Positions 3 through 21,043 of a stretch of DNA of 21,043 nucleotides are shown piece by piece; positions within the stretch are counted from its first letter, which is position 1; each line of letters opens with the position of its first letter. The position numbers were made by a program, and so were the translations under genes. Origin of the DNA: Methanomicrobiales archaeon (GTDB lineage Archaea > Halobacteriota > Methanomicrobia > Methanomicrobiales > Methanospirillaceae); the NCBI GenBank assembly GCA_037137755.1, contig JBAXJR010000040.1:1-21043 (forward strand), written 5' to 3'. The notes under the pieces were generated by a model that was not told the origin of the DNA, did not search any database, and saw only the letters and a list, made by a program, of their open reading frames with translations.

Positions 3-554
3 GGAAGCATTGCCGCCTGGGGAAACAACCAGTACGGCCAGTGTAATGTCCCAACAGGAACCAGCTACGCGGCAATCAGCGCCGGGGGGTGGCACAGCCT
101 GGCGATCGCTACGAACGGCAGCATTGTTGCATGGGGTGAGTCCACGGGAGTGGCCCCGTCCGGGAATGACTTTTCGGCTATCGCCTCAGGGTGGTACCAC
201 AACCTGGCCCTCCGCCAGGATGGCACCATTGTGGCATGGGGGAATAACAAAGTCGGCCAGTGTAATGCCCCCTCCGGGAATGACTTTGTCGCCGTAAGCG
301 GCGGGGGATATCACAGCCTTGCTTTACGGCAGAACGGGAGCATCGTGGCCTGGGGGGACAATCAGTATGGACAATGCAATGCCCCGGCAGGGAACGACTT
401 TGTCGCCGTAAGCGCCGGGGGGTATTTCAGCCTGGCCTTACGCCAGGATGGGAAAATCGTGGCATGGGGGGCGAATGATTCCGGCCAGTGCGATGCCCCT
501 GCCGGGACCTTTTCCTCTATCTCCGGCGGCTATGAACACAGCCTGGCCATTGCA
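3..554 (+). repeat. Intragenic tandem RCC1-like repeats, 38 aa / 114 bp period
   Basis: gactttgtcgccgtaagcg recurs at 282 and 396 (114 bp apart); about five units visible, one with a shortened loop (WGESTGVAPSG). Confidence 0.85.
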
Positions 555-3161
555 CCGGCGACTGGATCTCCGGTAGCGGGATTTTCTGCCACGCCAAAAA
601 GTGGAAAATCCCCCTTACAGGTCCAGTTCAATGATACCTCTTCCGGTACACCTCCGCTGTCGTACCAATGGAACTTTGGTGATGGGAGCCCGAATGTTAC
701 CGTGCAAAACCCCCTGCATACCTATACGACAGGGTCCAATTTAACCTTCAATACGGTGCTGACCGTTGCAAATAGCGAAGGAACTGACAGTACCGCCTGT
801 AATATCCTGGTTAACATAACCGCCCCAGACCCCTCGGGTACCCAGATCACTGCCCCTGCGGTGATCAGCACTCCGGGGAACTACCGGCTTATGAACGATC
901 TCACCAATTCAACCGCAGAGACTGCAATCTGGATAAAATCCTCGGATGTATATCTCAACGGGAACGGCCATACGCTCAACGGGGCTTTAGCCCTGAACAC
1001 CACAGGGGTTCTGGCCGGAGACCCGTCACGGGACCTGAAGAATATCACGGTTGAAAACCTCACTATCACCGGATGGACCCCTGGCATTCAGATAACCAGG
1101 GTCACTGACAGCAGGCTTCAGAATATCCGTGTAACAGGTAACCAGGAAGGGATCCGCCTGAGTGGTTCCCCGGGGACCGCAGTCAGCCACTGCCTGGTAT
1201 TCGATAATATCCCGCTGAACGAGAAGGGGGTATTCGTAGGCGGAACGGGTATCAATGCATTGGATTCTCCATATTCCCGCATTCTTGATTCCAACATAAG
1301 TCACAACGGGTGGGGGGAGGAACTTCCCGGTGTCGGAGGCTATGGTATACTATCCCTTAATAACACCGGCATGCTTGTTTCCGGCTGTGTTGTCAATACC
1401 AATGTCAACACCGGGATTTGGAACCAGGACTCGGAGGATATGGTTGTCGTTGGGAATCTGTTCCATCACAACAGTGGTAACGGCGGGATATTTATGACAG
1501 CACGGTCTGAAGCCCCTGAGCTGAATTCCACCATCGCAGACAATACCGTATCAGAGAGTGGATGGGGAATATGGCTCATGATGAATAACAACACCATCAG
1601 GAATAACACGGTACGTGATTGCGGGTACGGAATATTGCTTGATACCAGCAGGAATGCGACGCTGACCGGGAACGTAATGTTCGATAATACAGTGAATTTC
1701 GCGGTGGATGGCCAGGAAACAGAAAATTACTTCCATAGAATCGATACCTCAAATACCGTTAACGGCCATCCGGTTTACTACCTTGTCAACCAGTCCGGTA
1801 CGGTTGTAGACAGGATCACCAGAGCCGGAACGGTCTACGGAATATCCTGCCAGGATCTTACGGTCCGGGACCTGGCCCTGGATGAGAACGAGTACGGGGT
1901 ATTCCTCCTCGGGTCCGATAGGGCCGTCATCCGTAATGTGACCGCATCCGAGAATACCAACGGGTTCAGCATTATAAATAGTGATAATCCCCGTATCGAA
2001 ACATGTACCGCTAGGGCGAATACCAACAACGGTTTCCTGGTACAGGATTCAGATGGGGTACAGATCAGGGACTCAGGCTCTTTCCAAAATACAGGGGGGA
2101 TGGAAAGCGGGACAGGAATTGCTATTACTAACTGCCAGGACGTTCTCCTTCAGCAGGTGAACGCCAGCAGGAATAACTTTGCGGGGATTGACGTGGAAGG
2201 CACCGGTCGGGTGGACCTGTCAAACGTAATAACCAATGCGAATGGGGCTGTCGGGATGATTCTGGGGGGAGAAACAATCCAGGTCACCGGATGTTATATC
2301 CTGGATAACGAGGGTCCCGGGATAGGTATGCTGGATTCCAGCAACGTCACAATCTGGAACAACTACTTCTCGAATGACGAAAATATCGATATTTCCAAGG
2401 GGGTTGTAACCGGGTCTTCCTGGAATATCCAGAAAACAGCCGGTAATAACATCGTCAACGGTCCGTTCTTTGGCGGGAATTACTGGGCAACACCAGACGG
2501 GACCGGTTGGTCACAGGTCACGCCTGACCGGGGCGATGGATTCTGCAATGCACCGTTTGTTATAGATGCGAACAATACGGATTACCTGCCGCTCCATTCC
2601 TATACTCCGAAACCAACATTCCAGGCGGATTTCGCTGTTTCACCCGTGAATGGGATGGCTCCCCTGACCGTGAAATGCACCGATAAGTCCATCGGCAGCC
2701 CGACACATTATTATTACAATTTTGGAGATGGCGTCAATGTTACCGGGCCAAATCCTGTCCACACCTACAAGTACCCCGGTACCTACAGCATCACCCTGAC
2801 GATCACGAAATATAACCCCGCAACAGGTTCCATAATGAGCAGTGTGGCCACAAAAACGAATGTTATAACGGTCAGCAAAGTTCCGGTCGTCATGCCTGTC
2901 GCGAAATTCACTGCATCACCGACCAGTGGAACCGTGCCTCTGACCGTAACATTTACGGACCAGTCCACTGGGAACCCGACATTTTATACCTATGATTTCG
3001 GAGATGGTGTCAATATGACCGGGGCAAACCCGGTTCATACCTACCTGTTCCCCGGGGTCTACAATGTCACCCTGACGGTCCTGAAAAATGATGTAAGCAA
3101 TGGTTCGGTTGTTAGTAATGCATCTGTTCAAAAAGGCCTGATTGTGTTGAACGGAAAATAA
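3..3161 (+). CDS. Large cell-surface/secreted protein, 5'-partial: RCC1/BLIP-II-like repeats + PKD + right-handed parallel beta-helix (NosD/CASH-like) + two C-terminal PKD domains
   Basis: The frame of ORF 150..3161 stays open back to base 3 (GSIAAWGNNQYGQCNVPTGTSYAAISAGGWHSLAI...), so the true start is upstream of the window. Repeats AGxxHSLALxxDGxIVAWGxNxxGQ; PKD motifs WNFGDG, YNFGDG, YDFGDG each followed by NPxHTY; many GI-x-L/N-rich beta-helix rungs; GGNYW motif; many N-x-S/T sequons. Confidence 0.88.
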   Translation, partial: GSIAAWGNNQYGQCNVPTGTSYAAISAGGWHSLAIATNGSIVAWGESTGVAPSGNDFSAIASGWYHNLALRQDGTIVAWGNNKVGQCNAPSGNDFVAVSGGGYHSLALRQNGSIVAWGDNQYGQCNAPAGNDFVAVSAGGYFSLALRQDGKIVAWGANDSGQCDAPAGTFSSISGGYEHSLAIAPATGSPVAGFSATPKSGKSPLQVQFNDTSSGTPPLSYQWNFGDGSPNVTVQNPLHTYTTGSNLTFNTVLTVANSEGTDSTACNILVNITAPDPSGTQITAPAVISTPGNYRLMNDLTNSTAETAIWIKSSDVYLNGNGHTLNGALALNTTGVLAGDPSRDLKNITVENLTITGWTPGIQITRVTDSRLQNIRVTGNQEGIRLSGSPGTAVSHCLVFDNIPLNEKGVFVGGTGINALDSPYSRILDSNISHNGWGEELPGVGGYGILSLNNTGMLVSGCVVNTNVNTGIWNQDSEDMVVVGNLFHHNSGNGGIFMTARSEAPELNSTIADNTVSESGWGIWLMMNNNTIRNNTVRDCGYGILLDTSRNATLTGNVMFDNTVNFAVDGQETENYFHRIDTSNTVNGHPVYYLVNQSGTVVDRITRAGTVYGISCQDLTVRDLALDENEYGVFLLGSDRAVIRNVTASENTNGFSIINSDNPRIETCTARANTNNGFLVQDSDGVQIRDSGSFQNTGGMESGTGIAITNCQDVLLQQVNASRNNFAGIDVEGTGRVDLSNVITNANGAVGMILGGETIQVTGCYILDNEGPGIGMLDSSNVTIWNNYFSNDENIDISKGVVTGSSWNIQKTAGNNIVNGPFFGGNYWATPDGTGWSQVTPDRGDGFCNAPFVIDANNTDYLPLHSYTPKPTFQADFAVSPVNGMAPLTVKCTDKSIGSPTHYYYNFGDGVNVTGPNPVHTYKYPGTYSITLTITKYNPATGSIMSSVATKTNVITVSKVPVVMPVAKFTASPTSGTVPLTVTFTDQSTGNPTFYTYDFGDGVNMTGANPVHTYLFPGVYNVTLTVLKNDVSNGSVVSNASVQKGLIVLNGK

Positions 3162-4890: not shown

Positions 4891-5793
4891 ATGGAGTTGA
4901 AGCAGCTGGTTCCGCTGGCAGGGATGCTGGTAATGATGGTTCTCGTGGAAATCGGCGCCATACTTCTGTCACTCCCGATGAAAGCGGCAGGAATCTCGGC
5001 ATTCGAAGACCCGTCTTCCGTGTTAAATCCCCTTATCTTTATTGCAATACTTCTTGCCTTCACCGCGGTGCTCCTGGTCCTGCTTAAGTACCGCTATAAA
5101 CAGTTGATCGTTATAATCATTGCAATTTCAATTTTTTTCACGTTTGTTTATATTTTCAGCTCCATTGTGGCCTTCTTTACAAGTAACGAGATCCTTGCAG
5201 TTGTCCTGCCTCTCGTACTATCAGGGCTTGCCATTGCCCTCCTGTACCGGTTCCCTGAATGGTATGTCATTGATACGCTCGGGATACTTATTGCGGCCGG
5301 TGCGGCGTCAATTTTTGGCATTTCGCTTGGTATTGTGCCGGTAATTATCCTGCTCCTGCTTCTCGCGGTTTACGATGCTATCTCTGTGTACAAGACCAAG
5401 CACATGATCACCCTCGCAGAAGGTGTGATGGAGATGAAAACACCTATTCTCTTCGTCATCCCGAAAAAGGCCAGTTATTCGTATATCAGGGACGGGATAG
5501 GCAAGATTGGCGAGGGAGAACGGGGCGCGTTCATCATGGGGATGGGGGACCTCATTATGCCTGCGATCCTCGTTGTTTCTGCCAACATGTTTATAAAAAC
5601 CGGGGGGCTGTCATTTATCAATATCCCTGCATTAGGGGCGATGGCTGGATCCCTTGCCGGCCTCGTAGTCCTCCTGTGGTATGTATATAAGGGAAAACCG
5701 CAGGCAGGGCTCCCTCCATTAAACGGGGGGGCAATAATTGGCTTTCTGATCGGTTGTGCACTAAGCGGGAGCTGGGGATGGATGATTATCTAG
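4891..5793 (+). CDS. Presenilin / signal-peptide-peptidase family intramembrane aspartyl protease (archaeal PSH type)
   Basis: Multi-TM protein with catalytic YD (AVYDAISVYKTKHM), GxGD (GMGD) and PAL-equivalent (PQAGLPPL) motifs. Confidence 0.93.
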   Translation: MELKQLVPLAGMLVMMVLVEIGAILLSLPMKAAGISAFEDPSSVLNPLIFIAILLAFTAVLLVLLKYRYKQLIVIIIAISIFFTFVYIFSSIVAFFTSNEILAVVLPLVLSGLAIALLYRFPEWYVIDTLGILIAAGAASIFGISLGIVPVIILLLLLAVYDAISVYKTKHMITLAEGVMEMKTPILFVIPKKASYSYIRDGIGKIGEGERGAFIMGMGDLIMPAILVVSANMFIKTGGLSFINIPALGAMAGSLAGLVVLLWYVYKGKPQAGLPPLNGGAIIGFLIGCALSGSWGWMII

Positions 5794-11865: not shown

Positions 11866-13158
11866 TTATTGCTGCCACGGCGGTGTGACCATCGTTGAGG
11901 TGACGTCCTCCGTGGTCTCCCTGTTTCGCATGAGCGCCTTTCTCTCTCCTTTTACGAGGACTTCGGCACATCTCGGCCTGCAGTTGTACTGGGATGCCAT
12001 TGCAAACCCGTAGGCCCCTGCATCAAGGACCGCGATGATGTCTCCCGCCTCTACGGTCGGGAGTAACCGGTCGGCAGCTAAAATATCCCCGGTCTCACAG
12101 ATCGGACCCGCTATCGAATAGGTCTCTTTTTCGGGTGCAGTCGCCTTGTTGGCGACGATGACCTCGTGGTAGGAGTTATACATGGTCGGCCTGATCAGGA
12201 GGTTGAACCCTGCGTCCACGTTAACAAAATTTTTATGGGCAAATTTGACTGAATTTACGCGGGTAAGAAGTACCGAAGAATCGGCAACGAGATATCTCCC
12301 GGGCTCCACCCAGAGTGCAGGGCTGATACCCGCAGCGTTAATCCCCTCGACAAAAACCGGCACAACTGCCCGGGCGTACTCCTCGGGGGTTGGTGCGGGA
12401 TCGGTATCGTGGTGGTAGGGAATACCGAGGCCACCGCCAAGGTCAATAAATTCAAGTGCGACCCCTATCGCGGTCAGGTCTTTTGCGACCTTTACCATCA
12501 CTTCGGTAGCTTTCACAAAAGGTTCGATTTCGAGGATCTGGGAACCTATGTGGCAGTGGACCCCGACCGGGACCACATTGCTGCACGTGAGTGCCTCCCT
12601 GTACGCGGACAGGATCTTGTCATGGGCAATACCGAACTTGCTTGATGCAACCCCGGTCGCGATTTTAGGGTGGGTTGGAATGCGGAGTGCAGGGTTGACA
12701 CGGAACGAGATCCGTGCTTTCTTCCCGCCTGCTTTGGCAGCAGCATCGAGCTGGTGAAGTTCGTCAAGCGAGTCGACAGAGACCGTGATACCATGAGCGA
12801 CCGCGAGGGCGAGGTCGCCAGGGCTTTTTGAACTCCCGTTAAAGAGGAGGTCTGCCGGTTTCATCCCTGCAGACAGCGCGAGCTCGAGTTCACCGGGTGA
12901 GAAGACATCAGCACCGGCACCGAGTCTCCCCAGTGCACGGAGAAGCGAGACGTTCCCGTTGGCCTTTGCGGCGTAGAGCACTTTAGAATTCGGGTACAGG
13001 GACGCCAGGGCTTTTTGGTACCGTGTATAATTGTCGCAGATCCGCTGTTCATCCGTGACATAAAGCGGGGTCCCGTGCTCCTGCGCAAGGGCCACCAGGT
13101 CATGCCGGCCGATAAACAGGTGCCCGCCCTGAACTGAGATGTGTGGGGGCAGTTTCAC
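11866..13158 (-). CDS. lysA: Diaminopimelate decarboxylase
   Basis: YAAKAN (PLP lysine), SKFG, HCHIGSQ, DLGGG, EPGR, GPICETGD, GAYG; GTG start overlaps the dapL stop by 4 nt. Confidence 0.96.
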   Translation of the reverse strand: MKLPPHISVQGGHLFIGRHDLVALAQEHGTPLYVTDEQRICDNYTRYQKALASLYPNSKVLYAAKANGNVSLLRALGRLGAGADVFSPGELELALSAGMKPADLLFNGSSKSPGDLALAVAHGITVSVDSLDELHQLDAAAKAGGKKARISFRVNPALRIPTHPKIATGVASSKFGIAHDKILSAYREALTCSNVVPVGVHCHIGSQILEIEPFVKATEVMVKVAKDLTAIGVALEFIDLGGGLGIPYHHDTDPAPTPEEYARAVVPVFVEGINAAGISPALWVEPGRYLVADSSVLLTRVNSVKFAHKNFVNVDAGFNLLIRPTMYNSYHEVIVANKATAPEKETYSIAGPICETGDILAADRLLPTVEAGDIIAVLDAGAYGFAMASQYNCRPRCAEVLVKGERKALMRNRETTEDVTSTMVTPPWQQ

Positions 13159-14303
13159 GCCGATAGCCCCCTCATCCTTCCCAGTGCTTCGATGATGCGT
13201 TCTTTTGGCCGGGTGAGTGCAAACCTTACATACCCCTCACCCCAGCGTCCGAAGCCGAGACCGGGTGTGACGACAATACCTGCCTTATCCAGCATCATCG
13301 CGGAGAATTTCATGCAGTCTTCGACCTGCATCCATACGTAGAAGGTCGCTTTTGGGGCGGGGACGTTGTAGCCCAGTTCGTTAAGTCCTTTTACAAGGAT
13401 GTCACGCCGCTCCTGGTAGATCGCACAGGCCTCCCTGACACAGTCCTGCGGGCCGGAAAGGGCCGTGATTGCAGCATGCTGTACGGCGTTGAACACACCG
13501 GAATCCACGTTGGTCTTGACACGGCCAAGGCCTGACAGGATATCAGGGTTGCCTACGGCCATCCCGATCCGCCAGCCGGTCATATTGTAGGTCTTCGAGA
13601 GGGAGTGCATCTCGACACCGACCTCCATCGCTCCCTTCACTTCGAGGAAGGATGGTGCACGGTACCCGTCGTAGGCGATTTCCGAATAGGGGTTATCAGA
13701 AACAACAATGATATTGTTCTCGCTGGCAAAATCCACCACTTCGCGATAGAAGTCCGTTGAAGCTACCGCCGCGGTCGGGTTGTTCGGGTAGTTGATGAAC
13801 ATGAGTTTTGCCGCTTTGATGACATCCTTTGGAATGTCTGAAAGGACGGGAATGAATTTATTCTCCCTTTTAAGCGGCATTTCATGGACCCTACCCTCTG
13901 AGAACAGCGTTCCCGTGTAGTATCCAGGGTAACCGGGACTCGGGGCGAGCACGTAATCGCCGGGATCAACAAAGGCCTCTCCGATATGCGTGATTCCGTC
14001 TTTCGATCCCATCAGGGCAAGGACTTCTTTGCCCGGGTCAAGGGATACCCCGAACCGTGTTTTATACCAGTCTGCAACGGCACTCCGGTATTGCGGCATT
14101 CCCGCGTAACTCGGGTAATGGTGGTTTTCTACATGGTGTGCCGCCTCGCAGAGCGATTCCACGATATGGCGGGGTGTTGGAAGATCAGGGTCACCTACCC
14201 CGAGGTCGATGACATCAACGCCGCTCCTTATTTTCTCGGCCTTCATCTCATCGATCCGGGCAAAAAGGTAAGGGGGAAGCTGGCCCATACGTTTTGCGTA
14301 CAT
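13155..14303 (-). CDS. dapL: LL-diaminopimelate aminotransferase (class I/II PLP aminotransferase)
   Basis: LPPYLFA, DLGVGDPDLPTP, GSKDG, NYPNNPT, SLSKTYNMTGWRIG; coupled to lysA. Start set at ATG 14303 (MYAKRMGQLPPYLF); the extra 14 codons in the ORF track come from the repeat. Confidence 0.9.
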   Translation of the reverse strand: MYAKRMGQLPPYLFARIDEMKAEKIRSGVDVIDLGVGDPDLPTPRHIVESLCEAAHHVENHHYPSYAGMPQYRSAVADWYKTRFGVSLDPGKEVLALMGSKDGITHIGEAFVDPGDYVLAPSPGYPGYYTGTLFSEGRVHEMPLKRENKFIPVLSDIPKDVIKAAKLMFINYPNNPTAAVASTDFYREVVDFASENNIIVVSDNPYSEIAYDGYRAPSFLEVKGAMEVGVEMHSLSKTYNMTGWRIGMAVGNPDILSGLGRVKTNVDSGVFNAVQHAAITALSGPQDCVREACAIYQERRDILVKGLNELGYNVPAPKATFYVWMQVEDCMKFSAMMLDKAGIVVTPGLGFGRWGEGYVRFALTRPKERIIEALGRMRGLSA

Positions 14304-14370
14304 TTGCACATATTTTGATTTAATGCGATACATCCCTTTCGGCACGGTGATCTCGGAACGGGTAACTTTG
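14290..14370 (-). repeat. Direct repeat copy 1 (overlaps first 14 nt of dapL; lacks the inverted-repeat arm)
   Basis: Ungapped hand alignment to 16238-16318 gives 69/81 identities; 37 nt (14308-14344) are identical to 20447-20483. Confidence 0.95.
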
Positions 14371-14527
14371 CGGTGTATGAAGTGCCCGTCTTTTGGTAGA
14401 CCTCTTATCTGAACCTCGCTAGTCGACCTTTCGCTTCCCTATTCCCTTAAAGAGAGTTACCATCCTTAACGATCCATCAATTCCGCAAATAAATGAGATT
14501 AAACGATGTAAAAACAGTTTCATGAAC

Positions 14528-15361
14528 TTATTCATTCCCGATCGGAATGGCATTTTCCCATAATTTTTGAAAAACACCTCTTAGCTGGGAATTCAGAACC
14601 GCATCACGAATCCTGATCATTGCATAAGGCCGGGCGAGATCTCTTTGATCCTCAGGTTCAAATATGCATGTTGTTTTGTCCACGAGGATGAAGTTATGTT
14701 CCGTGTTGCAAACCCGGATTTCAACCAGATCATGATAGAGTTGCCGGGTATCATCATCCTGGATGCAGGAGGCGATTTTGGAAAAGAAATTTAAATAAGG
14801 GGAATCCGGGTAAATTATTTTTACAGAAATTCCCCTTTTCAACAGACTGACCAGGTTATTCATTAATGAATATAATGTTCTTTCATCAGGTTCTGAATTA
14901 AAAGAACCATAGCGAATCTGAGTAACATATATCACTTCTTTTTTCGCTTCATTGTGTATCCGTATGAAATAATTCAGGATATCTTCATTGCTGTACATAA
15001 TTTGTAAATCCTGAAGATTGGGTGATGATTGATTTTTTCTCTCTAAACCCTGTTCGAGTTGAGTTATGGTATTTTTTAAATCCTCCCGCTTTTTTTCATG
15101 TTCGATAAAATATTTCATATAGGTTCGTTGAAGTGCAATTTCCGGAATGATGGCTTCGTATTTTTTTGGCCTTCCGGAATGCTCGATAATTATTTCATTT
15201 ATGAGAAGCTGGGAGAGCGTTTCATAGATTTTTCCCATAGGAACATGAGATTCTCCTGACAGAATTCTCGCGTCAAGTGGGCCTTTTCGAAGCAGGCAGG
15301 CGTAAATTAATGCCTGGTATTTAGAAAGACCAATCTTCTGGAGCAAATCGATGTCAGACAT
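14528..15361 (-). CDS. TrmB-family transcriptional regulator
   Basis: LQKIGLSKYQALIYACLL...SHVPMGKIYETLSQL...GRPKKYEAI wHTH, coiled coil, C-terminal PLD-like effector domain (RGISVKII, HNFILVD, FQKLWENA). Confidence 0.9.
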   Translation of the reverse strand: MSDIDLLQKIGLSKYQALIYACLLRKGPLDARILSGESHVPMGKIYETLSQLLINEIIIEHSGRPKKYEAIIPEIALQRTYMKYFIEHEKKREDLKNTITQLEQGLERKNQSSPNLQDLQIMYSNEDILNYFIRIHNEAKKEVIYVTQIRYGSFNSEPDERTLYSLMNNLVSLLKRGISVKIIYPDSPYLNFFSKIASCIQDDDTRQLYHDLVEIRVCNTEHNFILVDKTTCIFEPEDQRDLARPYAMIRIRDAVLNSQLRGVFQKLWENAIPIGNE

Positions 15362-15424
15362 TAAACTTCACTGAGTTTATTTGGTGTGAATTGTTTAAAT
15401 CACTATACCAGGAGAATACTGATT
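15362..15424. promoter_or_regulatory. Divergent promoter region with candidate operator, TATA-like box and SD
   Basis: TTCAC(15367-15371)-N14-GTGAA(15386-15390) inverted repeat; TTTAAA at 15394-15399; AGGAG at 15410-15414. Confidence 0.45.
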
Positions 15425-15829
15425 ATGACAACCATGACTAAGGAACCCCAGTCTCCCCTTGAAGTCGTCAAGGCATTCTTTGCTGCAATGGCAAAGCTCG
15501 ACTACGACACGGCACTTTCGTATGTTTCCGATAATTGTGAGTACGATAACCTGCCCATGCCTGATGCCAAGGTATATGGGCCGGCAGGTATTCGTGCCGT
15601 GCTGGAACCATTCTTCGCGCCAACCATCAAAAACGAGTTTGTCGTGCTGCGCGAAGCGGCACAAGGCCCTGTTGTATTTATGGAGCGACTCGATCGGCAC
15701 CGCCTGCCAAATGGCTGGTTTGAGTTGCCCGTCATGGGTGTGATGGAGGTGCACAATGGTCGCATCACGCTCTGGCATGAGTACTTCAACCTGCCCACGA
15801 TCGCACCCATGTTTACTCCGCAATCCTGA
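15425..15829 (+). CDS. Limonene-1,2-epoxide hydrolase-like protein (NTF2/SnoaL fold)
   Basis: YDNLP (Tyr/Asn water-binding pair), MERLD (Arg/Asp), LPVMGVMEVHNGRITLWHEYF; start ATG 15425 (or 15434) after AGGAG. Confidence 0.85.
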   Translation: MTTMTKEPQSPLEVVKAFFAAMAKLDYDTALSYVSDNCEYDNLPMPDAKVYGPAGIRAVLEPFFAPTIKNEFVVLREAAQGPVVFMERLDRHRLPNGWFELPVMGVMEVHNGRITLWHEYFNLPTIAPMFTPQS

Positions 15830-16217
15830 CAAAATCAGCGTTTAACGGCCTGTAAGGGCGTCGTTGTAGCGGTGGGATCAGAGCTAAAGGAATCGAGCAC
15901 CGCAGTAACAGAAAGCGGTTACACACGATATGTACATGTCCGCAATCTAGTGCTGGCTAATGGAAATATACCCAAAATCATATCCCTTTCATCGACATCG
16001 GGCAGCAGAATTTTCTTTGTGATGTTTGAAATTTGCAGAGCCGGGGAATTTCTGTAAGGCTTTCCCGGTGTTGCCCAACTGACTTACCGGGAATTATCCA
16101 GAGCTTATAAAGCCACAGATTTGAATTATAACCCATTTTATCGCAGTCAACTGAATAATATTTAAAATTTTAAAAGCTCGAAGAAGATATCAGGAAACCT
16201 GGATGGGAAAATCCTAT

Positions 16218-16318
16218 AAAAAGCGAACACCTACGTTCGTTTTTCGTACATTTGGACATATTATTATTTGATGCGATACATCCCTTTCGGCACCGTGATC
16301 TCAAACCGGACACCTTTG
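16218..16318 (-). repeat. Direct repeat copy 2 (contains last 17 codons and stop of the histidine kinase, plus 11-6-11 inverted repeat)
   Basis: Shares atgcgatacatccctttcggca (16271-16292) with copies 1 and 3; aaaaagcgaac-acctac-gttcgtttttc at 16218-16245. Confidence 0.95.
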
Positions 16319-19300
16319 CCAGGTTCGCCGTTCTCCTTAATAGTGATGCCTGTAAGGGAGAGAATCTCCCGTACCAGGAACATTCCAAGACCGGTGTTCT
16401 TTCCGAATCCCCGTTCAAAGATCTTCTCCTTCTCCTCTACCGGGATTCCTACACCGTTGTCTTCCCAGATAATAGTTAACGTATTATTGGACTTTTCGAT
16501 AGACACTCTGATGTTAGTCACATGCTCACCGTGCCGCACAGAGTTATCAAGAAGGTTAAAAAAGACCCGTTCAAGCATCGGATCAGCGTATATTTCTGTG
16601 CCTTTCACATTGGAATTCAACTTTAACGTTGGCGGGAGATGTGGACTAAGTGCAATGATTATATTCAAATCCTGCCATAGTGGTTCATGCGTACCAAGAT
16701 TTTCGTAGACCTTCGTAAACTCGATCTGGGAGCGAATTGCCCTCGTGGCCAATTCGATTTTGCTTAAATACTCTGCAATCAGCGGATTTTTTAGTTCCAT
16801 TTCTGCCAGGGAGATATATCTAAGGATAGTTGTGATCTTATTCAGGATATCATGGCGTGTGATTCCGGTGAGAAGCTTTAACTGCCGGTTTGACTGAAGG
16901 ATTGCTTGTTCCGCCTTTTTCCGGTCTGTAATGTCCCGGCCATTAGAGATAATAGCAGGTTTTCCGTTATACGTGATTACGCGACTGCTCACTTCCGCCG
17001 GGATACGGGTTCCATCCTTTGCGTGGTGAGCCGTTTCAAAAACAACATGGCCGGTTTGCTGCAGTTCCTGGACACGAGCCTGGACCATATTGCCATATTC
17101 GGGTTCGTCTATGTCGCTGGGACTCATTTTAAGCAGTTCTTCACGTGAATAGCCAAGTCTCCTGCAAATTTCATCGTTAACCTCCAGGAAATGGCCCTGC
17201 ATATCATGGATCACGATTGCGTCGCCGGCGTTGTTGAAGAAGTCCCGGAATTTCGCCTCACTCTCCCGCGATGCTTCCTCAACCTGTTTTCGTTCGGTGA
17301 TATTTTGTCCTAAAATGGCAAGCCGCCTGATCTTTCCATCCGGATCTATCACCGGATTAAGTATATTATTAAACACTGTACCTGACCCGACGTTTTCATA
17401 CTGCACCATCTGTCCGGACCGTAGAACTTCCTGGACCTTGCTTTTACGTTCCTCGCACAATTCGGGGGGGAGGACCGAGTAACTATTCAGTCCAACAATA
17501 TCCTCACCCCTCGCAAATCCAAGGCGTTTGGCCGCTGTTTCATTGGCTGCGAGAATAGTTCCATCTAAAAGCATCAGGAAGGCCGATTCGGTGATCCCGT
17601 TCAGCATAGCAGAAAGCGTTTCCTCGCTTGACTGTAGATCTGCTTCTGCCCGTTTGAGATCAGTAATGTCAGTGCAGGAACCCAGGTAGCCTCCTTGTGG
17701 CAACGCGCTAGCGTTCATCATTACGTTCAAATAATCGCCGTTCTTTTTCCGAAGTTGAATCTCTCTCGATAGTGAACCCTTCACCTGTAACGTAGAAAAA
17801 TTATTGCTACGGCCCGGCTGGTCAGGATTTATGTCATACACCGAAAGGGAAAGAAGTTCTTCACGGGAATAACCGAGCATTGAACACGCATAGGGATTTA
17901 CATCCCGGTACTTACCTAGTGAATCCACAATAAAAATTCCAACAGGGGAATTGTCAATATATGTACGGTATCGTGACTCGTTTTCTTTAAGTGCTTCCGC
18001 CACTTTTTTGCGTTCCGTGATGTCATGAATAACTCCAATAACAGCATTCTCTTGTGGATTGTATTCTGCAACAGAATGAATATCAAGTACTGCTCCGTCA
18101 GATTGCCTCTGGATTTTAAATTCAACATTATAAGGAGATTTTCCCGCAATAAGGTCTTTCAGAGCCGTATTGAGGAGAGGGCGATAACCGGCGATGGGGA
18201 TTTTCTGGATAGCTTCAAGGGTAAATTGCGCTCCTTCGAGACCATAAAGGATCTTTGCACCTTCCGAGGCGGTGACACTATGATCATTTAATCGGATCTC
18301 CCAGCTTCCCGACCTGCCGATCTCTTCCGCCCGTTTTAAATGCATCTCGCTAATGCGGAGTATATCCTCTTCCTTTCTCCGTTCTGTGATGTCCTGAACC
18401 AGACCAAGCATACGGTTCTGCTCGCCGATGGGACTGAATTCGATTTTGCCTCTTGCCCAAATCCAACGGATTTCACCATCAGTTCGCCGTATACGGCACT
18501 CAAATTCCCAGTCGTGCTTACATGACTGGGCCTCATTGAACGCATGATCCACCAAATCCCGATCTTCCGGCAGGACATGTTCCAAAAACATCTCGTATGT
18601 CCATTCCGGTAAAAGGGAATCATATCCAAAAATCTGGTCGTGCCGGAGTGATCGCCACGCTGTATGACGTTTCAGGTCAAGGTCCCAGGTCCCCATTTGA
18701 GCTACGCTAAGAGCGAGTTCAAGTCGCTCCTCGCTCTTTCGCAGTGCTTCCTCTGCCCGCTTCCGTTCGGTAATGTCCTCGATTGTCCCTTCATAGGCGA
18801 TGATCTTTCCATTGGTATTACGTATAACTCTTGCATTTGTGGTAATCCAGATAGAATGTCCATCCCTGTGCCAGTTTTGCATCTCGAAATTCCGAACCTC
18901 CCCTGCCTCTGAAAGTGATCGATTAAAGATCTGCCGAACTTCCGGGTTGACATATAACTGCTTCTGGATATCGTGGATTGCAGACATCATCTCTTCGGGA
19001 GAGTCGTACCCGTATATTTGTGCAAATGCCAGGTTCATAGTCAGATATCTTCCCTCCGGAGTCGTCTGGAAGATCCCAAGGATTGAATTATCAAACAGTA
19101 AGTGGAATTTACTTTCGCTTTTAAGACGTTCTTCTTCGGCCTCTTTTATTTCCGTTACATCCCGGCCAACTGATTGGTACTCGATTATCGTACCTGAAGC
19201 ATCGAATATCGCCCGGTCGCTCCAACGCTGCCACCGGATGGTGCCGTCCGGCATTACGATCCGGTGCTCAATGGTATCTACCTGATTATCCTGTGCCAAC

Positions 19301-20268
19301 GACCTGAAAAATTTGTTTATTCGTTCCTGGTCCTCCGATGGGATCTTTGGTCTGAAACGGTGACCTAGGATATCATGTCGAGCGAAGCCGAAGTATCTGC
19401 AATACGCTTCGTTTACAAAAATATGTGTGCCGTCAGGCAGAAACCGGGAAATTAATTCTGTCTGGTCCTCGACAACATTCCTATACCGCCTCTCGCTTTC
19501 CCGGAATGCTTCTTCTGTCCGCGTCTGTTCTGTTATATCAAAGGCCAGTCCGGTAACACCTGTGATTGTCCCCTGTGCATCGTAAAGAGGAGAGAGATAT
19601 GTCCGAAATGTTATACCCTCATACGTATAGTCATACACGGTCGACTCTCCGGTGAGCGCACGCAGATGGTGGCTTATTTCCGGATGATCCGGGTCACTCG
19701 TATTAAAGAATTCATAGAGGGTCTTTCCAACTGCCTTATCAGGTTTAAGGCCAATTTCTGCAAGTCCTGCGCCCTGCGACAAAGTAAACCGAAGGTTGCT
19801 GTCAACTGCCCACACGGTTCCAGGCAGTTGGTTCATAACAGATCGGAACCTTTCTTCACTTTGATTTAATGCCCTCTCTGCCCACTTCCGATAAATCGCC
19901 ATCTTGATCTTGTGGGTCAGCTCAACAAACTGTGCCTGCGGATCTCCACCCTTTTGGAGGTAAAAATCTGCCCCTTCGTTCAGAGCCTGGATGACAACAT
20001 CTTCACGCCCTTTACCAGTGAAGAGAATAAACGGTATATTATTGCCGGAATTTCTTACCGTCTTCAAAAGTTGAATGCCGTCCATATCGGGCATCTGGTA
20101 ATCGGATATAATGGCATCGAATTGTTCGGTTTTAAGAAGTGACAAGGCAGAAATGGCCGAATCAATTGTTTTTACTGAAATATCTCCGGTGTGTTCCAGG
20201 AACATCTTACCGATTTCGAGAAGGCCATGTTCATCATCAACATAGAGTACCCGAAGTACACCAGTCAT
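16264..20268 (-). CDS. Hybrid sensor histidine kinase: N-terminal receiver + 8 PAS/PAC domains + HisKA-like + HATPase_c
   Basis: REC (LYVDDE, ISDYQMPDMDG, FTG, YLQKG); eight PAS blocks closed by DITE-like motifs; H box RHDILN, N box NLLDNSVRHG, G1 EDNGVG, F box IFERGF, G2 TGLG. Confidence 0.95.
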   Translation of the reverse strand: MTGVLRVLYVDDEHGLLEIGKMFLEHTGDISVKTIDSAISALSLLKTEQFDAIISDYQMPDMDGIQLLKTVRNSGNNIPFILFTGKGREDVVIQALNEGADFYLQKGGDPQAQFVELTHKIKMAIYRKWAERALNQSEERFRSVMNQLPGTVWAVDSNLRFTLSQGAGLAEIGLKPDKAVGKTLYEFFNTSDPDHPEISHHLRALTGESTVYDYTYEGITFRTYLSPLYDAQGTITGVTGLAFDITEQTRTEEAFRESERRYRNVVEDQTELISRFLPDGTHIFVNEAYCRYFGFARHDILGHRFRPKIPSEDQERINKFFRSLAQDNQVDTIEHRIVMPDGTIRWQRWSDRAIFDASGTIIEYQSVGRDVTEIKEAEEERLKSESKFHLLFDNSILGIFQTTPEGRYLTMNLAFAQIYGYDSPEEMMSAIHDIQKQLYVNPEVRQIFNRSLSEAGEVRNFEMQNWHRDGHSIWITTNARVIRNTNGKIIAYEGTIEDITERKRAEEALRKSEERLELALSVAQMGTWDLDLKRHTAWRSLRHDQIFGYDSLLPEWTYEMFLEHVLPEDRDLVDHAFNEAQSCKHDWEFECRIRRTDGEIRWIWARGKIEFSPIGEQNRMLGLVQDITERRKEEDILRISEMHLKRAEEIGRSGSWEIRLNDHSVTASEGAKILYGLEGAQFTLEAIQKIPIAGYRPLLNTALKDLIAGKSPYNVEFKIQRQSDGAVLDIHSVAEYNPQENAVIGVIHDITERKKVAEALKENESRYRTYIDNSPVGIFIVDSLGKYRDVNPYACSMLGYSREELLSLSVYDINPDQPGRSNNFSTLQVKGSLSREIQLRKKNGDYLNVMMNASALPQGGYLGSCTDITDLKRAEADLQSSEETLSAMLNGITESAFLMLLDGTILAANETAAKRLGFARGEDIVGLNSYSVLPPELCEERKSKVQEVLRSGQMVQYENVGSGTVFNNILNPVIDPDGKIRRLAILGQNITERKQVEEASRESEAKFRDFFNNAGDAIVIHDMQGHFLEVNDEICRRLGYSREELLKMSPSDIDEPEYGNMVQARVQELQQTGHVVFETAHHAKDGTRIPAEVSSRVITYNGKPAIISNGRDITDRKKAEQAILQSNRQLKLLTGITRHDILNKITTILRYISLAEMELKNPLIAEYLSKIELATRAIRSQIEFTKVYENLGTHEPLWQDLNIIIALSPHLPPTLKLNSNVKGTEIYADPMLERVFFNLLDNSVRHGEHVTNIRVSIEKSNNTLTIIWEDNGVGIPVEEKEKIFERGFGKNTGLGMFLVREILSLTGITIKENGEPGKGVRFEITVPKGMYRIK

Positions 20269-20408
20269 TACTCTTCATTGCATGCCCATCAGATATTAGT
20301 TTGTCATTCAGATACCCTGCGCCAGCGGTCCTGTTTCGGTGAGGACTCTTATTTTTTCTAAAAAAATTTCAAAAATATGGCCTGGAAATTGGTAGAGAAA
20401 AGGTATGC

Positions 20409-20508
20409 AGAAAGCGAACACGTACGTTCGGTTTGCGCACATTAGGACATATTTTGATTTAATGCGATACATCCCTTTCGGCAGCGTAATCTCGAACAGG
20501 CACCTTTG
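20409..20508 (-). repeat. Direct repeat copy 3 (intergenic; kinase-tail-like stub with 1-nt deletion plus inverted repeat)
   Basis: Core 20462-20483 identical to the other copies; agaaagcgaac-acgtac-gttcggtttgc at 20409-20436; ends at the same ctttg as the others. Confidence 0.95.
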
Positions 20509-20645
20509 TGGGGATTATTTAAAAAAAAATTTACATTATCCAGGGCCGTTGGTATACGGATCCGCCTCGTCAGACTGTGCATTCATGATAGGGAAAAAGG
20601 CCCGGATGTGGAGGACAAATGGGGTCCCCTTGAAAAATAAAGATT

Positions 20646-21041
20646 TCAGGTCCCCAGCGGGGACTCATTCATGCCGAGGAAATCGAGTGCGTTCTCCCCG
20701 TATTGGACGGGTGCATACTTGGACCCGAAATGCGGGAGTCCCTTGAACCGCACGAGCCACGATCCGTTGATCTGACTGGCAATCTGGACCGTAACATTCT
20801 GTGGCGTCAGTACGTCCGCGGTGCCCACGACGAGCATGACCGTCTTATTGATCCCTGAAAGGTGGTCCCATGACCCGCTCCAGTTCAGGTTTGCCTGGGA
20901 CTCCTGGTGAACGCCCTGGGTCTGGTTAGGATTGTTACCTTCCACGACAATGAGAGCGTACAGCAGTTTGGTCTCCGGTATCCGGATATCGTAGGTCACA
21001 GAATCCAGTACCAGTTTTCGTACGCGTTCAGGGTGATCGAT
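20646..21041 (-). CDS. Alpha/beta hydrolase, 5'-partial
   Basis: Frame is open to the window edge (IDHPERVRKLVLDSVTYD...); catalytic Asp region VGTADVLTP and His region GLPHFG. Confidence 0.88.
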   Translation of the reverse strand: MDHPERVRKLVLDSVTYDIRIPETKLLYALIVVEGNNPNQTQGVHQESQANLNWSGSWDHLSGINKTVMLVVGTADVLTPQNVTVQIASQINGSWLVRFKGLPHFGSKYAPVQYGENALDFLGMNESPLGT

Positions 21042-21043
21042 AA

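What the first reader, a model, noticed from the sequence alone, without database searches (positions are those of the whole stretch)
16261..16318. The repeat doubles as the coding 3' end of the histidine kinase; orphan copies are kinase-tail stubs
Seen: copy 2 encodes KGVRFEITVPKGMYRIK*, copy 1 reads KVTRSEITVPKGMYRIKS and copy 3 KGA-(1 nt deletion)-FEITLPKGMYRIKS. Flanking codons show synonymous changes (atc/att, acg/acc, ttt/ttc, cgg/cgt), suggesting origin from kinase paralogs, yet ccg aaa ggg atg tat cgc has no change even at wobble positions. Inference: either a recombination site was co-opted from a kinase tail, or elements integrate into kinase 3' ends and leave displaced stubs, as tRNA-targeting islands do. 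Either would offer a route to turnover of PAS kinases in these methanogens.
Basis: partly seen in the sequence, partly recalled or inferred. Interest (0 to 1): 0.72.

Follow-up and report, generated by a model that had tools for sequence, protein, structure and literature searches.

The report
Kinase-tail/dapL-start junction repeat bounding cassettes
The repeated kinase tail is real, but it is one part of a longer repeat that joins a kinase gene's end to the start of the lysine gene dapL, marks the borders of swappable gene blocks in lake methanogens, and lets different sensor kinases be spliced in.

Summary
Three direct copies lie at 14272-14361, 16220-16309 and 20411-20500. Copy 2 is the true 3' end of a 1334-aa REC-PAS-HATPase kinase.

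The repeat is composite. It holds about 17 kinase codons, a 19-26 nt spacer and the first 14 nt of the dapL ORF (ATGTACGCAAAACG). Internal copies add a small hairpin, a T-run and a promoter-like box.

Copies bound gene blocks in an island that varies between species. The island sits between cutA1 and dapL-lysA in one subclade of an uncultured Methanomicrobiales genus. Outgroups have cutA1 next to dapL. A 27-nt block is nearly invariant in 31 copies, while the 5' part of the stub drifts. All orphans share one 5' boundary.

Cassette genes are closer between species than dapL and lysA are. Five kinases of different lineages carry the same grafted tail. No integrase lies nearby, and there is no attC-like fold.

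My best reading is homology-driven cassette turnover and kinase capture at a junction repeat that dapL expression keeps intact. Elements do not target kinase 3' ends in general: only 2 of 69 kinases carry the repeat. First-stage notes of this scan had already flagged the array.

The parts
16267..16318 (-). Coding part of repeat copy 2: the last 17 codons of the kinase (KGVRFEITVPKGMYRIK). The stop is at 16264-16266 and a second TAA at 16261-16263.
16264..20268 (-). Kinase 1, 1334 aa: Response_reg, several PAS domains and HATPase_c. It forms a cassette between copy 3 and copy 2.
16215..16312 (-). Repeat copy 2 as a whole: kinase tail, spacer, dapL-start stub, hairpin and T-run.
16238..16251 (-). 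dapL-start stub ('O') inside copy 2: ATGTACGAAAAACG, one mismatch to the dapL start ATGTACGCAAAACG.
16218..16244 (.). Hairpin CGAAC-N6-GTTCG, flanked by an A5 run on one side and a T5 run on the other (terminator-like in both directions). Across copies the stem is kept and the loop varies.
14272..14361 (-). Repeat copy 1: a kinase-tail relic plus the conserved block (23-mer at 14323-14345). It runs straight into the true dapL start and has no hairpin.
13155..14303 (-). dapL (LL-diaminopimelate aminotransferase), with its start revised to the ATG at 14303 (MYAKRMGQLPPYLF...). Its first 14 nt are the 'O' segment found in every repeat copy.
20411..20500 (-). Repeat copy 3: an orphan stub with a 1-nt deletion. 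The conserved 23-mer is at 20462-20484 and 'O' is at 20429-20442 (2 mismatches), followed by a hairpin. It lies about 140 nt upstream of the kinase start.
14528..15829 (.). Cassette between copy 2 and copy 1: a TrmB-family regulator (14528-15361, minus strand) and a LEH/SnoaL-like protein (15386-15829, plus strand).
20646..21043 (-). 3' part of an alpha/beta-hydrolase cassette gene. The gene continues on contig C39, which overlaps the window's end by exactly 55 nt.
11866..13158 (-). lysA (diaminopimelate decarboxylase), the conserved right flank next to dapL.

Best explanation
The 58-nt stretch is the kinase-coding part of a composite junction repeat. The repeat is about 100 nt long next to dapL and about 190 nt long inside the array. 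It consists of:
- the last ~17 codons of a PAS/HATPase kinase;
- a 19-26 nt spacer;
- the first 14 nt of the dapL ORF;
- in internal copies only, a 5-bp-stem hairpin, a T-run and a promoter-like box.

One ancestral kinase-dapL junction was copied along with each block of genes that entered the space between cutA1 and dapL-lysA. The repeats now bound cassettes: alpha/beta-hydrolase, HXXEE, TrmB+LEH, an HTH protein, an aquaporin and kinases.

Shown:
- The arrays differ between species by units of one cassette plus one repeat.
- Outgroups have an empty site.
- Cassette genes are younger than the flanking genes.
- Kinases of different lineages are fused in frame to the same tail.

Inferred:
- Recombination is homology-driven. 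It takes place between repeats, and between the stub and the conserved tails of the ~70 kinase paralogs.
- The near-invariant block is kept for two reasons. It carries dapL's start and 5' control region, and it is the tract of identity where exchanges resolve.
For: Composite nature:
- In all 14 outgroup genomes that I read, out of 28 loci returned, dapL starts M-(x)-Y-[A/S]-x-R-[M/L].
- The TIGR03540 equivalog aligns from profile position 2 at the Y, scoring 613.6 bits against a cut-off of 593.25.
- ATGTACGCAAAACG in every copy is therefore the dapL start.

Array:
- G010 has hydrolase-rep-dapL.
- G004 and G012 have rep-hydrolase-rep-HTH-LEH-TrmB-rep-dapL.
- G003 has AKR-rep-HXXEE-rep-hydrolase-rep-kinase(tail)-dapL.
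- G007 has rep-HTH-rep-ORF131-rep-dapL.
- G000 has kinase2-rep-hydrolase-rep-kinase1-rep-LEH/TrmB-rep-dapL.

Empty site: cutA1 lies 110-240 nt upstream of dapL in 5 of 8 outgroup loci examined.

Conservation in 11 distinct dapL-adjacent copies:
- 43 of 57 columns are invariant, with a mean identity of 92.5%.
- In the 5' part of the stub, 2 of 35 columns are invariant.
- At dapL fourfold-degenerate sites, 16 of 129 are invariant.

Common boundary: in 26 distinct orphans, the match to the kinase consensus is 0.19-0.27 upstream of -27 (0.38 in one A/T-rich bin at -54) and 0.54-0.78 after it.

Cassette exchange: in 10 of 10 genome pairs, third-codon-position identity of cassette genes (0.78-0.97) exceeds that of dapL (0.61-0.79).

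Kinase capture:
- The catalytic domain of the L094 kinase is 89% identical to the G000 paralog C34:16708-19654, but only 41-45% identical to the other array kinases.
- Its DNA follows that paralog up to GTGCCGAA and then follows the repeat.
- Kinase 2 keeps ACT in place of AAA inside the block, which points to a different breakpoint.

No recombinase and no fold:
- The 11 PF00589 matches in G000 all lie on other contigs.
- G007 has only the universal 327-aa type.
- Single-stranded DNA folds give z-scores of -0.2 to -0.84.

A second, unrelated boundary repeat (B-type, 77-80% identical over 66-73 nt) flanks the methyltransferase block. This fits a general homology mechanism better than a single dedicated site.
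Against: - The left-most copies in G000, G004, G012 and locus L092 hold only 'O' plus the hairpin arm. The dapL-adjacent copies hold only the stub, the block and 'O'. The two ends of the array therefore share just 14 nt, which is the textbook pattern of attL and attR.
- The left half of a repeat tends to travel with the upstream gene and the right half with the downstream gene. Exchanges therefore seem to fall within the ~55-nt conserved core. That is also what a fixed crossover site would give.
- How the first duplication of the junction arose is not explained.
- All genomes are metagenome assemblies. Contigs break at the repeats, so cassette order could be wrong in places.
- The genomes are close kin, so the counts are not independent.
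- High between-species identity of the core could come partly from recent exchange rather than from purifying selection.
- The promoter or 5'-region role of the block has no expression data behind it.
Confidence: 0.6

Rival explanations
1. Site-specific cassette system. The repeat is an att-like site whose crossover lies in the 14-nt dapL-start core. The 27-nt block would be the binding arm of a recombinase encoded elsewhere in the genome. Cassettes would excise as circles carrying one repeat and re-insert at the dapL 5' end.
For: - Half-sites at the array ends share only the 14-nt core in G000, G004, G012 and L092.
- The unit of difference between genomes is one cassette plus one repeat.
- The left and right halves of a repeat co-vary with their own neighbouring genes.
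- The block is near-invariant in non-coding copies: 26 of 27 positions in 5 copies that follow the hydrolase gene and 23 of 27 in 6 copies that precede it.
- Cassettes have moved between species.
Against: - No integrase lies in or near any array examined.
- Tyrosine recombinases occur in all 13 genomes of the genus, whether or not they carry the repeat. G007 has an array but only the universal XerA-like enzyme.
- The repeat has no dyad or attC-like fold.
- The left-most copy in G007 is a full copy, not a half-site.
- Kinase fusions have different breakpoints.
- A second repeat family flanks the methyltransferase block.
Confidence: 0.2
2. The repeat is mainly a regulatory or RNA module. A TATA-like box upstream of each stub would start a transcript inside the stub. 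Next to dapL this RNA would be the dapL leader. At internal copies it would be a ~90-nt RNA ending at the hairpin and U-run, or else the block is an operator that co-regulates the cassettes. Recombination would be incidental.
For: - tRNA genes of this genome have boxes such as ACCTTTTTTAC and CCTTATAC about 30-40 nt upstream.
- Similar boxes (CACTTTATACACC, AAAAATAATCCCC) end about 10 nt before 'GCAAAGG' in 9 of 10 dapL-adjacent copies that do not follow a kinase (my count by eye in the listings).
- The 5' part of the stub drifts in sequence but keeps its length, as a TATA-to-start spacer would.
- The hairpin stem is kept while its loop varies.
- The block is far more conserved than synonymous sites.
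Against: - No Rfam family matches; the best hit has E = 1.1.
- No covarying structure was found apart from the 5-bp hairpin, and the possible GGGAUGUAU/AUAUGUCC stem is broken in several copies.
- In G003 a kinase gene abuts dapL with no TATA-like box upstream of the stub.
- A regulatory role does not explain why kinases of several lineages are fused in frame to the block.
Confidence: 0.15
3. One reading: integrative elements target the 3' ends of PAS kinase genes across the genome and leave displaced tail stubs, as tRNA-targeting islands do.
For: The orphans do carry kinase-tail relics beside inserted genes. Islands with partial-tRNA repeats are a known pattern (Prochlorococcus tycheposon preprint 10.1101/2020.12.28.424599; I read the passages found).
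Against: - Only the 2 kinases inside this array, out of 69, have the downstream element. Every copy with the non-coding part lies at this one locus, in G000 and in the six relatives that carry it.
- The invariant anchor is dapL, not a kinase.
- Orphans share one boundary and one upstream A/T box.
- There is no integrase.
Confidence: 0.03
4. The copies are an assembly artefact or a chance similarity.
For: Short-read contigs end inside copies 1 and 3 (at 14315 and 20474). C40 and C39 are split inside the array.
Against: - The same repeat, in comparable arrays, appears in 6 other assemblies of the genus and in further metagenome contigs. Two of these arrays lie on contigs of 301,711 and 234,160 nt.
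- Contigs from four runs bridge copy 2.
- The exact 19-mer is otherwise found only twice among 185,579 species genomes, and both hits lack any flanking similarity.
Confidence: 0.01

Closest known systems
Chromosomal integron cassette arrays / CALINs, including the archaeal integrons of Ghaly et al. 2022 (PMC9668308; I read the abstract and outline only)
   Same: Both are tandem arrays in which each gene block is followed by one copy of a conserved ~100-nt site. Gene content differs between close relatives, and cassettes are exchanged between species.
   Different: Here there is no IntI next to the array. The repeat is conserved in sequence and does not fold as a hairpin. It is made of two gene ends (kinase 3' end and dapL 5' end). 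Some cassettes hold several genes in both orientations and seem to have their own promoters.
Islands built by tandem integration at tRNA genes, with partial-tRNA repeats (for example Prochlorococcus tycheposons, preprint 10.1101/2020.12.28.424599; I read the passages found)
   Same: In both, a duplicated piece of the target gene marks each insertion. Newer blocks stack at one site, and the ends of the array share only a short core.
   Different: Here the target is the 5' end of a protein-coding gene (dapL). The repeat also drags along a kinase 3' end. No integrase or replication module is present. The kinase fusions have variable breakpoints.
Integrase-free hotspots of horizontal transfer between conserved core genes (Oliveira et al. 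2017, PMC5635113; I saw only the search listing and the start of the abstract)
   Same: In both, a variable region is pinned between two conserved genes (here cutA1 and dapL-lysA) without mobile-element genes. Turnover is most simply explained by homologous recombination.
   Different: Here internal repeats subdivide the hotspot into exchangeable units. Homology to a ~70-member kinase family offers an extra route for entry.
Ordinary C-terminus of the HATPase_c histidine kinase family of this genome (consensus GEPGKGARFEMTVPKGMYR*)
   Same: Copy 2 is a genuine member. The tail residues match the family consensus.
   Different: In the other 67 paralogs the tail codons vary at wobble positions and nothing downstream is shared.

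Membership tests
Integron (IntI + attI + attC cassettes) | An integron-type tyrosine recombinase gene lies adjacent to the array. | tested here: not met
   Pfam found no recombinase among 18 window ORFs or among 20 ORFs of five related arrays. All 11 PF00589 matches in G000 lie on contigs other than C39 and C40.
Integron (IntI + attI + attC cassettes) | attC sites are imperfect palindromes that fold as single-stranded hairpins and are conserved in structure rather than in sequence. | tested here: not met
   Single-stranded DNA folds of both strands of copies 2 and 3 give z-scores of -0.22 to -0.84. The alignment-based consensus fold (RNA energy parameters, both strands) finds only a 5-bp hairpin. 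It is the sequence itself that is near-invariant.
Integron (IntI + attI + attC cassettes) | The array is built of units of one cassette plus one site, and differs between relatives by such units. | tested here: met
   Gene maps of G000, G003, G004, G007, G010 and G012.
Integrative element with an att duplication of a gene end | Direct repeats contain the end of the target gene, so that the gene stays intact after insertion. | tested here: met
   Every copy holds the first 14 nt of dapL, and the dapL-adjacent copy is the real start of the gene.
Integrative element with an att duplication of a gene end | The outermost copies are half-sites (attL, attR) that share only the crossover core. | tested here: inconclusive
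   Seen in G000 (C39), G004, G012 and L092. In G007 the left-most copy is a full copy.
Integrative element with an att duplication of a gene end | The element encodes its own integrase. | tested here: not met
Core-gene-flanked HGT hotspot | The same two conserved genes flank a region whose content differs between genomes. Some genomes, or the outgroups, have an empty site. | tested here: met
   cutA1 and dapL are adjacent in 5 of 8 outgroup loci examined. Element-bearing genomes have inserts of 1.9 kb to more than 15 kb.
HATPase_c histidine kinase | The stretch is the C-terminal strand of an intact HATPase_c domain in an open reading frame. | tested here: met
   This holds for copy 2 only: HATPase_c covers residues 1231-1328 of the 1334-aa protein. 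Copies 1 and 3 have no kinase similarity upstream of about -27.
Described RNA family (Rfam 15) | A covariance-model match at or near the gathering score. | tested here: not met
   Only STnc430 was reported, at 25.4 bits against a gathering score of 47, E = 1.1.
MITE / insertion sequence | Terminal inverted repeats and a short target-site duplication. | tested here: not met
   None of the inverted pairs listed in the window involves the repeat. Copies occur at one locus only.

The most novel reading that the evidence does not exclude
The 27-nt invariant block plus the 14-nt dapL-start core is a dedicated recombination site. It would be served by a recombinase encoded elsewhere in the genome, or by a specialised use of the RadA machinery. 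If so, this is an archaeal cassette platform that carries no integrase of its own. It stays fixed because it supplies the start of an essential lysine gene. Its built-in kinase-tail stub lets it capture any of the ~70 sensor-kinase paralogs in frame, which would make it an engine for turning over the sensory repertoire of these methanogens.
Probability: 0.2. Interest if true: 0.8.

Novelty: new variant of a known kind. Interest (0 to 1): 0.6.

Why it matters
Methanomicrobiales carry very large families of PAS sensor kinases, and how these families turn over is not known. This locus gives a concrete, sequence-level case. Kinases of different lineages have been joined in frame to one repeat, through the tail that all paralogs share.

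The locus also shows a repeat-bounded cassette array in an archaeon with no integrase nearby. The array is anchored at the first codons of an essential biosynthetic gene, so each insertion must bring its own copy of the gene's start. That could explain how such arrays persist.

If recombination here proves to be site-specific, it would be a new kind of cassette platform. If it is homology-driven, it is a clear natural example of short, conserved homology tracts organising gene exchange between species whose synonymous sites have already diverged by about 30%.

Tried and rejected
- Expression data: no RNA holder was listed for window 13100-21043, so transcripts could not be examined.
- Structural variants: I laid contigs of four DNA runs to look for joints at the repeats. 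The contigs simply end inside copies 1 and 3. The few joints listed have short sides of 20-48 nt and none links two repeats, so nothing can be concluded.
- Rfam found nothing usable.
- RNA structure: the consensus fold supports only the small hairpin. The GGGAUGUAU/AUAUGUCC stem has no compensatory change and is broken in several copies.
- N-terminal extension of dapL or a small ORF through the repeat: rejected. The frame to dapL shifts by +2 and +1 nt in L059 and L060, and stops occur in several copies.
- Origin of the hairpin arm from dapL's 5' coding region: rejected. In 1294 of 2000 shuffles the alignment scored at least as well.
- The two exact 19-mer hits in a Dehalococcoidales MAG and an Erysipelotrichaceae MAG, and metagenome loci L082 and L093, show no similarity outside the 19-mer. 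I treated them as chance.
- Sliding identity profiles could not place the cassette/flank breakpoint exactly, because the first ~300 nt of dapL are themselves highly conserved.
- Literature: searches for a kinase-3'-end attachment site, or for such an island in Methanoregula, returned nothing relevant among the listed papers. One search failed on a formatting slip and was re-sent.
- Rows dropped before counting: L084 (overlaps L083); L086, L088-L090 and L097 (identical to copies already counted); L082 and L093 (chance hits).

Full report
**Observation**

The window holds three direct copies of a ~90-nt repeat at 14272-14361, 16220-16309 and 20411-20500. On the minus strand, copy 2 supplies the last 17 codons and the stop of a 1334-aa protein with a receiver domain, several PAS domains and HATPase_c (ORF 16264-20268). 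It reads KGVRFEITVPKGMYRIK**. Copy 1 reads (K)VTRSEITVPKGMYRIKSK. Copy 3 reads KGA, then a 1-nt deletion, then FEITLPKGMYRIKSK.

The 18-mer CCGAAAGGGATGTATCGC occurs three times in the 2.64-Mb genome, and only here.

A profile search of all ORFs found 69 close paralogs of the kinase's catalytic end, with a tail consensus of GEPGKGARFEMTVPKGMYR*. In these paralogs the same codons vary freely: CCG 44 of 68, AAA 26 of 39, GGG 29 of 54, TAT 11 of 33 and CGC 6 of 67. Of 28 genome matches to a 131-nt query, 24 cover the coding tail only. Four also cover the sequence after the stop: the three window copies and C39:694-795.

**What the repeat contains**

I fetched dapL orthologues from relatives (28 loci) and read the upstream sequence of 16 of them: G000, G010 and 14 outgroup genomes. 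In all 14 outgroups the protein begins M-(x)-Y-[A/S]-x-R-[M/L]. An ATG directly precedes the Y in 11 of them, and ATG-x precedes it in 3.

The window gene scores 613.6 bits on the LL-diaminopimelate aminotransferase equivalog TIGR03540 (cut-off 593.25). The alignment starts at profile position 2, on that Y. The true dapL start is therefore the ATG at 14303, and its first 14 nt, ATGTACGCAAAACG, lie inside every repeat copy.

The repeat is thus a two-gene junction. It holds about 17 kinase codons, a 19-26 nt spacer and the dapL start. Internal copies continue with the hairpin CGAAC-N6-GTTCG, a T-run, and a box such as ATACTTTTTCTATAC. The hairpin stem is kept while the loop varies.

**The locus in relatives**

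Full-length copies, including the non-coding part, were found in 7 of the 13 genomes of the genus: G000, G003, G004, G006, G007, G010 and G012. In each genome all of them lie in one cluster. They were not found in G001, G008 or G009, whose dapL is only 78-80% identical to the window's protein. They were also not found in the incomplete G002, G005 and G011.

Gene maps:
- G010: hydrolase-rep-dapL.
- G004 and G012: (aquaporin or HXXEE)-rep-hydrolase-rep-HTH-LEH-TrmB-rep-dapL.
- G003: aldo/keto reductase-rep-HXXEE-rep-hydrolase-rep-kinase-dapL. The kinase tail is itself the dapL-adjacent copy, and an ISAZ013-type transposase gene interrupts the kinase.
- G007: rep-HTH-rep-ORF131-rep-dapL.

The window's contig overlaps contig C39 by exactly 55 nt. 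G000 therefore reads: methyltransferase, half-copy, kinase 2 (tail = repeat), hydrolase, copy 3, kinase 1 (tail = copy 2), LEH/TrmB, copy 1, dapL-lysA.

In 5 of 8 outgroup loci examined, cutA1 lies 110-240 nt upstream of dapL in the divergent orientation, with nothing in between. The island is therefore an insertion between cutA1 and dapL.

The exact 19-mer of the core was found in 16 stretches among 185,579 species genomes. Fourteen of these lie in records titled as uncultured Methanomicrobiales MAGs. The other two show no flanking similarity. A metagenome scan added further arrangements: HXXEE-rep-dapL, TrmB-rep-HXXEE, and another kinase-tail copy.

**Conservation**

In 11 distinct dapL-adjacent copies, the 57 nt before and including the dapL start have 43 invariant columns and a mean pairwise identity of 92.5%. 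The 35 nt of stub just upstream have 2 invariant columns and 55% identity. dapL third-codon positions are 68% identical, and only 16 of 129 fourfold-degenerate sites are invariant.

The 27-nt block GCCGAAAGGGATGTATCGCATTAAATC is invariant at 26 of 27 positions in five copies that follow the hydrolase gene, and at 23 of 27 in six copies that precede it.

In 26 distinct orphan copies, the match to the kinase-tail consensus stays near background (0.19-0.27, with 0.38 in one A/T-rich bin at -54) upstream of -27. It rises to 0.54-0.78 from GGCAAAGG onward. All stubs therefore start at the same place. This fits one ancestral stub that was propagated, not repeated independent events.

**Evidence of movement**

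For 10 of 10 genome pairs with data, third-position identity of cassette genes (0.78-0.97) exceeds that of dapL (0.61-0.79). For example, between G004 and G012, TrmB is 0.956, LEH 0.966 and HTH 0.927, against dapL 0.712 and lysA 0.688. One caveat: values on the cutA1 side range from 0.50 to 0.95, so the flanks are themselves mosaic.

Five kinases end in the repeat: kinase 1, kinase 2, and those of G003, G006 (L064) and L094. Their catalytic domains are not each other's closest relatives.
- The L094 kinase is 89% identical to the G000 paralog at C34:16708-19654, which ends ...AVPNLAWRMSGEGNRK*. It is only 41-45% identical to the other four.
- L064 is 81% identical to the paralog at C46:6005-10829.

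At the DNA level, L094 follows the C34 paralog up to GTGCCGAA and then switches to the repeat. Kinase 2 keeps ACT where the others have AAA inside the block, which points to a different fusion point. Kinases have therefore been grafted onto the repeat through the tail that all paralogs share.

**Mechanism**

No recombinase gene lies in the window or in the arrays examined. PF00589 proteins occur in all 13 genomes of the genus, whether or not they carry the repeat. In G000 they lie on other contigs. G007 has an array but only the universal 327-aa type.

The repeat has no attC-like fold (z-scores -0.2 to -0.84) and matches no Rfam family. A second, unrelated boundary repeat flanks the methyltransferase block.

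These points, together with the variable kinase breakpoints, favour homologous recombination. Recombination would take place between repeats, and between the stub and kinase tails. Only insertions that bring their own copy of the dapL start and 5' region would survive, because they keep dapL intact.

Against this reading, the array ends in four genomes are half-sites that share only the 14-nt core. The two halves of a repeat also co-vary with their own neighbouring genes. A fixed crossover site served by a recombinase encoded elsewhere would predict both, so I keep that reading at 0.2.

A regulatory or RNA role for the block is plausible. TATA-like boxes resembling those of this genome's tRNA genes lie upstream of most stubs, and the stub keeps its length while its sequence drifts. 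This role has not been tested.

**Comparison and verdict**

The closest known systems are:
- integron cassette arrays, including archaeal ones (PMC9668308; abstract and outline read);
- tRNA-anchored islands with partial-gene repeats (preprint 10.1101/2020.12.28.424599; passages read);
- integrase-free hotspots between core genes (PMC5635113; listing only).

This locus works like these systems but fails the defining tests for an integron: it has no IntI and no folded attC.

Earlier first-stage notes of this scan had already flagged a cassette array at the dapL 5' end in this window and a repeat-bounded island elsewhere in the genome. My maps agree with the first of these.

I rate the finding as a new variant of a known kind, with interest 0.6.

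Noticed in passing
L060:6152-7360 (G003): A DDE_Tnp_ISAZ013 transposase gene (E = 2.7e-145) interrupts the G003 counterpart of kinase 1. It splits the kinase into a 710-aa N-terminal ORF and a 335-aa PAS-HATPase ORF.
   Followed up: partly
G000 contig C39, oriented positions ~1970-2035 and 5267-5376; also L062 1945-2017 and 4179-4223: A second boundary repeat of ~70 nt (77-80% identical) lies near cutA1 and again after the methyltransferase gene, just before the left-most half-copy. In G004 the cutA1-proximal copy is followed by ATGTACAC, which may be an old dapL-start relic.
   Followed up: partly
window 21043 / contig C39 position 1: The end of the window's contig and the start of contig C39 overlap by an exact 55 nt. 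The two contigs are therefore neighbours, and the array continues onto C39.
   Followed up: yes
window 3-3161 (+): A large surface-type protein, open at its 5' end, with RCC1 repeats, NosD/beta-helix and three PKD domains. Its 5' part holds 114-nt tandem DNA repeats (families D1 and D2).
   Followed up: no
window 13155-14345: The longest ORF for dapL starts at a GTG at 14345, inside the kinase-tail relic. The conserved start is the ATG at 14303, so automatic annotation may give dapL a false N-terminal extension.
   Followed up: yes
L059:6132-6527 (G007): A 131-aa cassette ORF between two repeats has no Pfam match.
   Followed up: no
window 15395-15832 (-): A 145-aa ORF lies antisense to the LEH/SnoaL gene and has no Pfam match. 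It is probably a shadow ORF.
   Followed up: no
L058 versus L062 (G004 versus G010), cutA1 side: The methyltransferase, cutA1 and the 159-aa ORF are 0.88-0.98 identical at third-codon positions between these two genomes, while dapL is 0.72. The left and right flanks of the island therefore have different histories.
   Followed up: partly
L094 position 468 (metagenome locus): This orphan copy is unusually diverged in the otherwise invariant block (CTGACGAAAGGGCTGTATCGCAT) and has a shortened hairpin loop. It shows that the block can decay in some positions.
   Followed up: no
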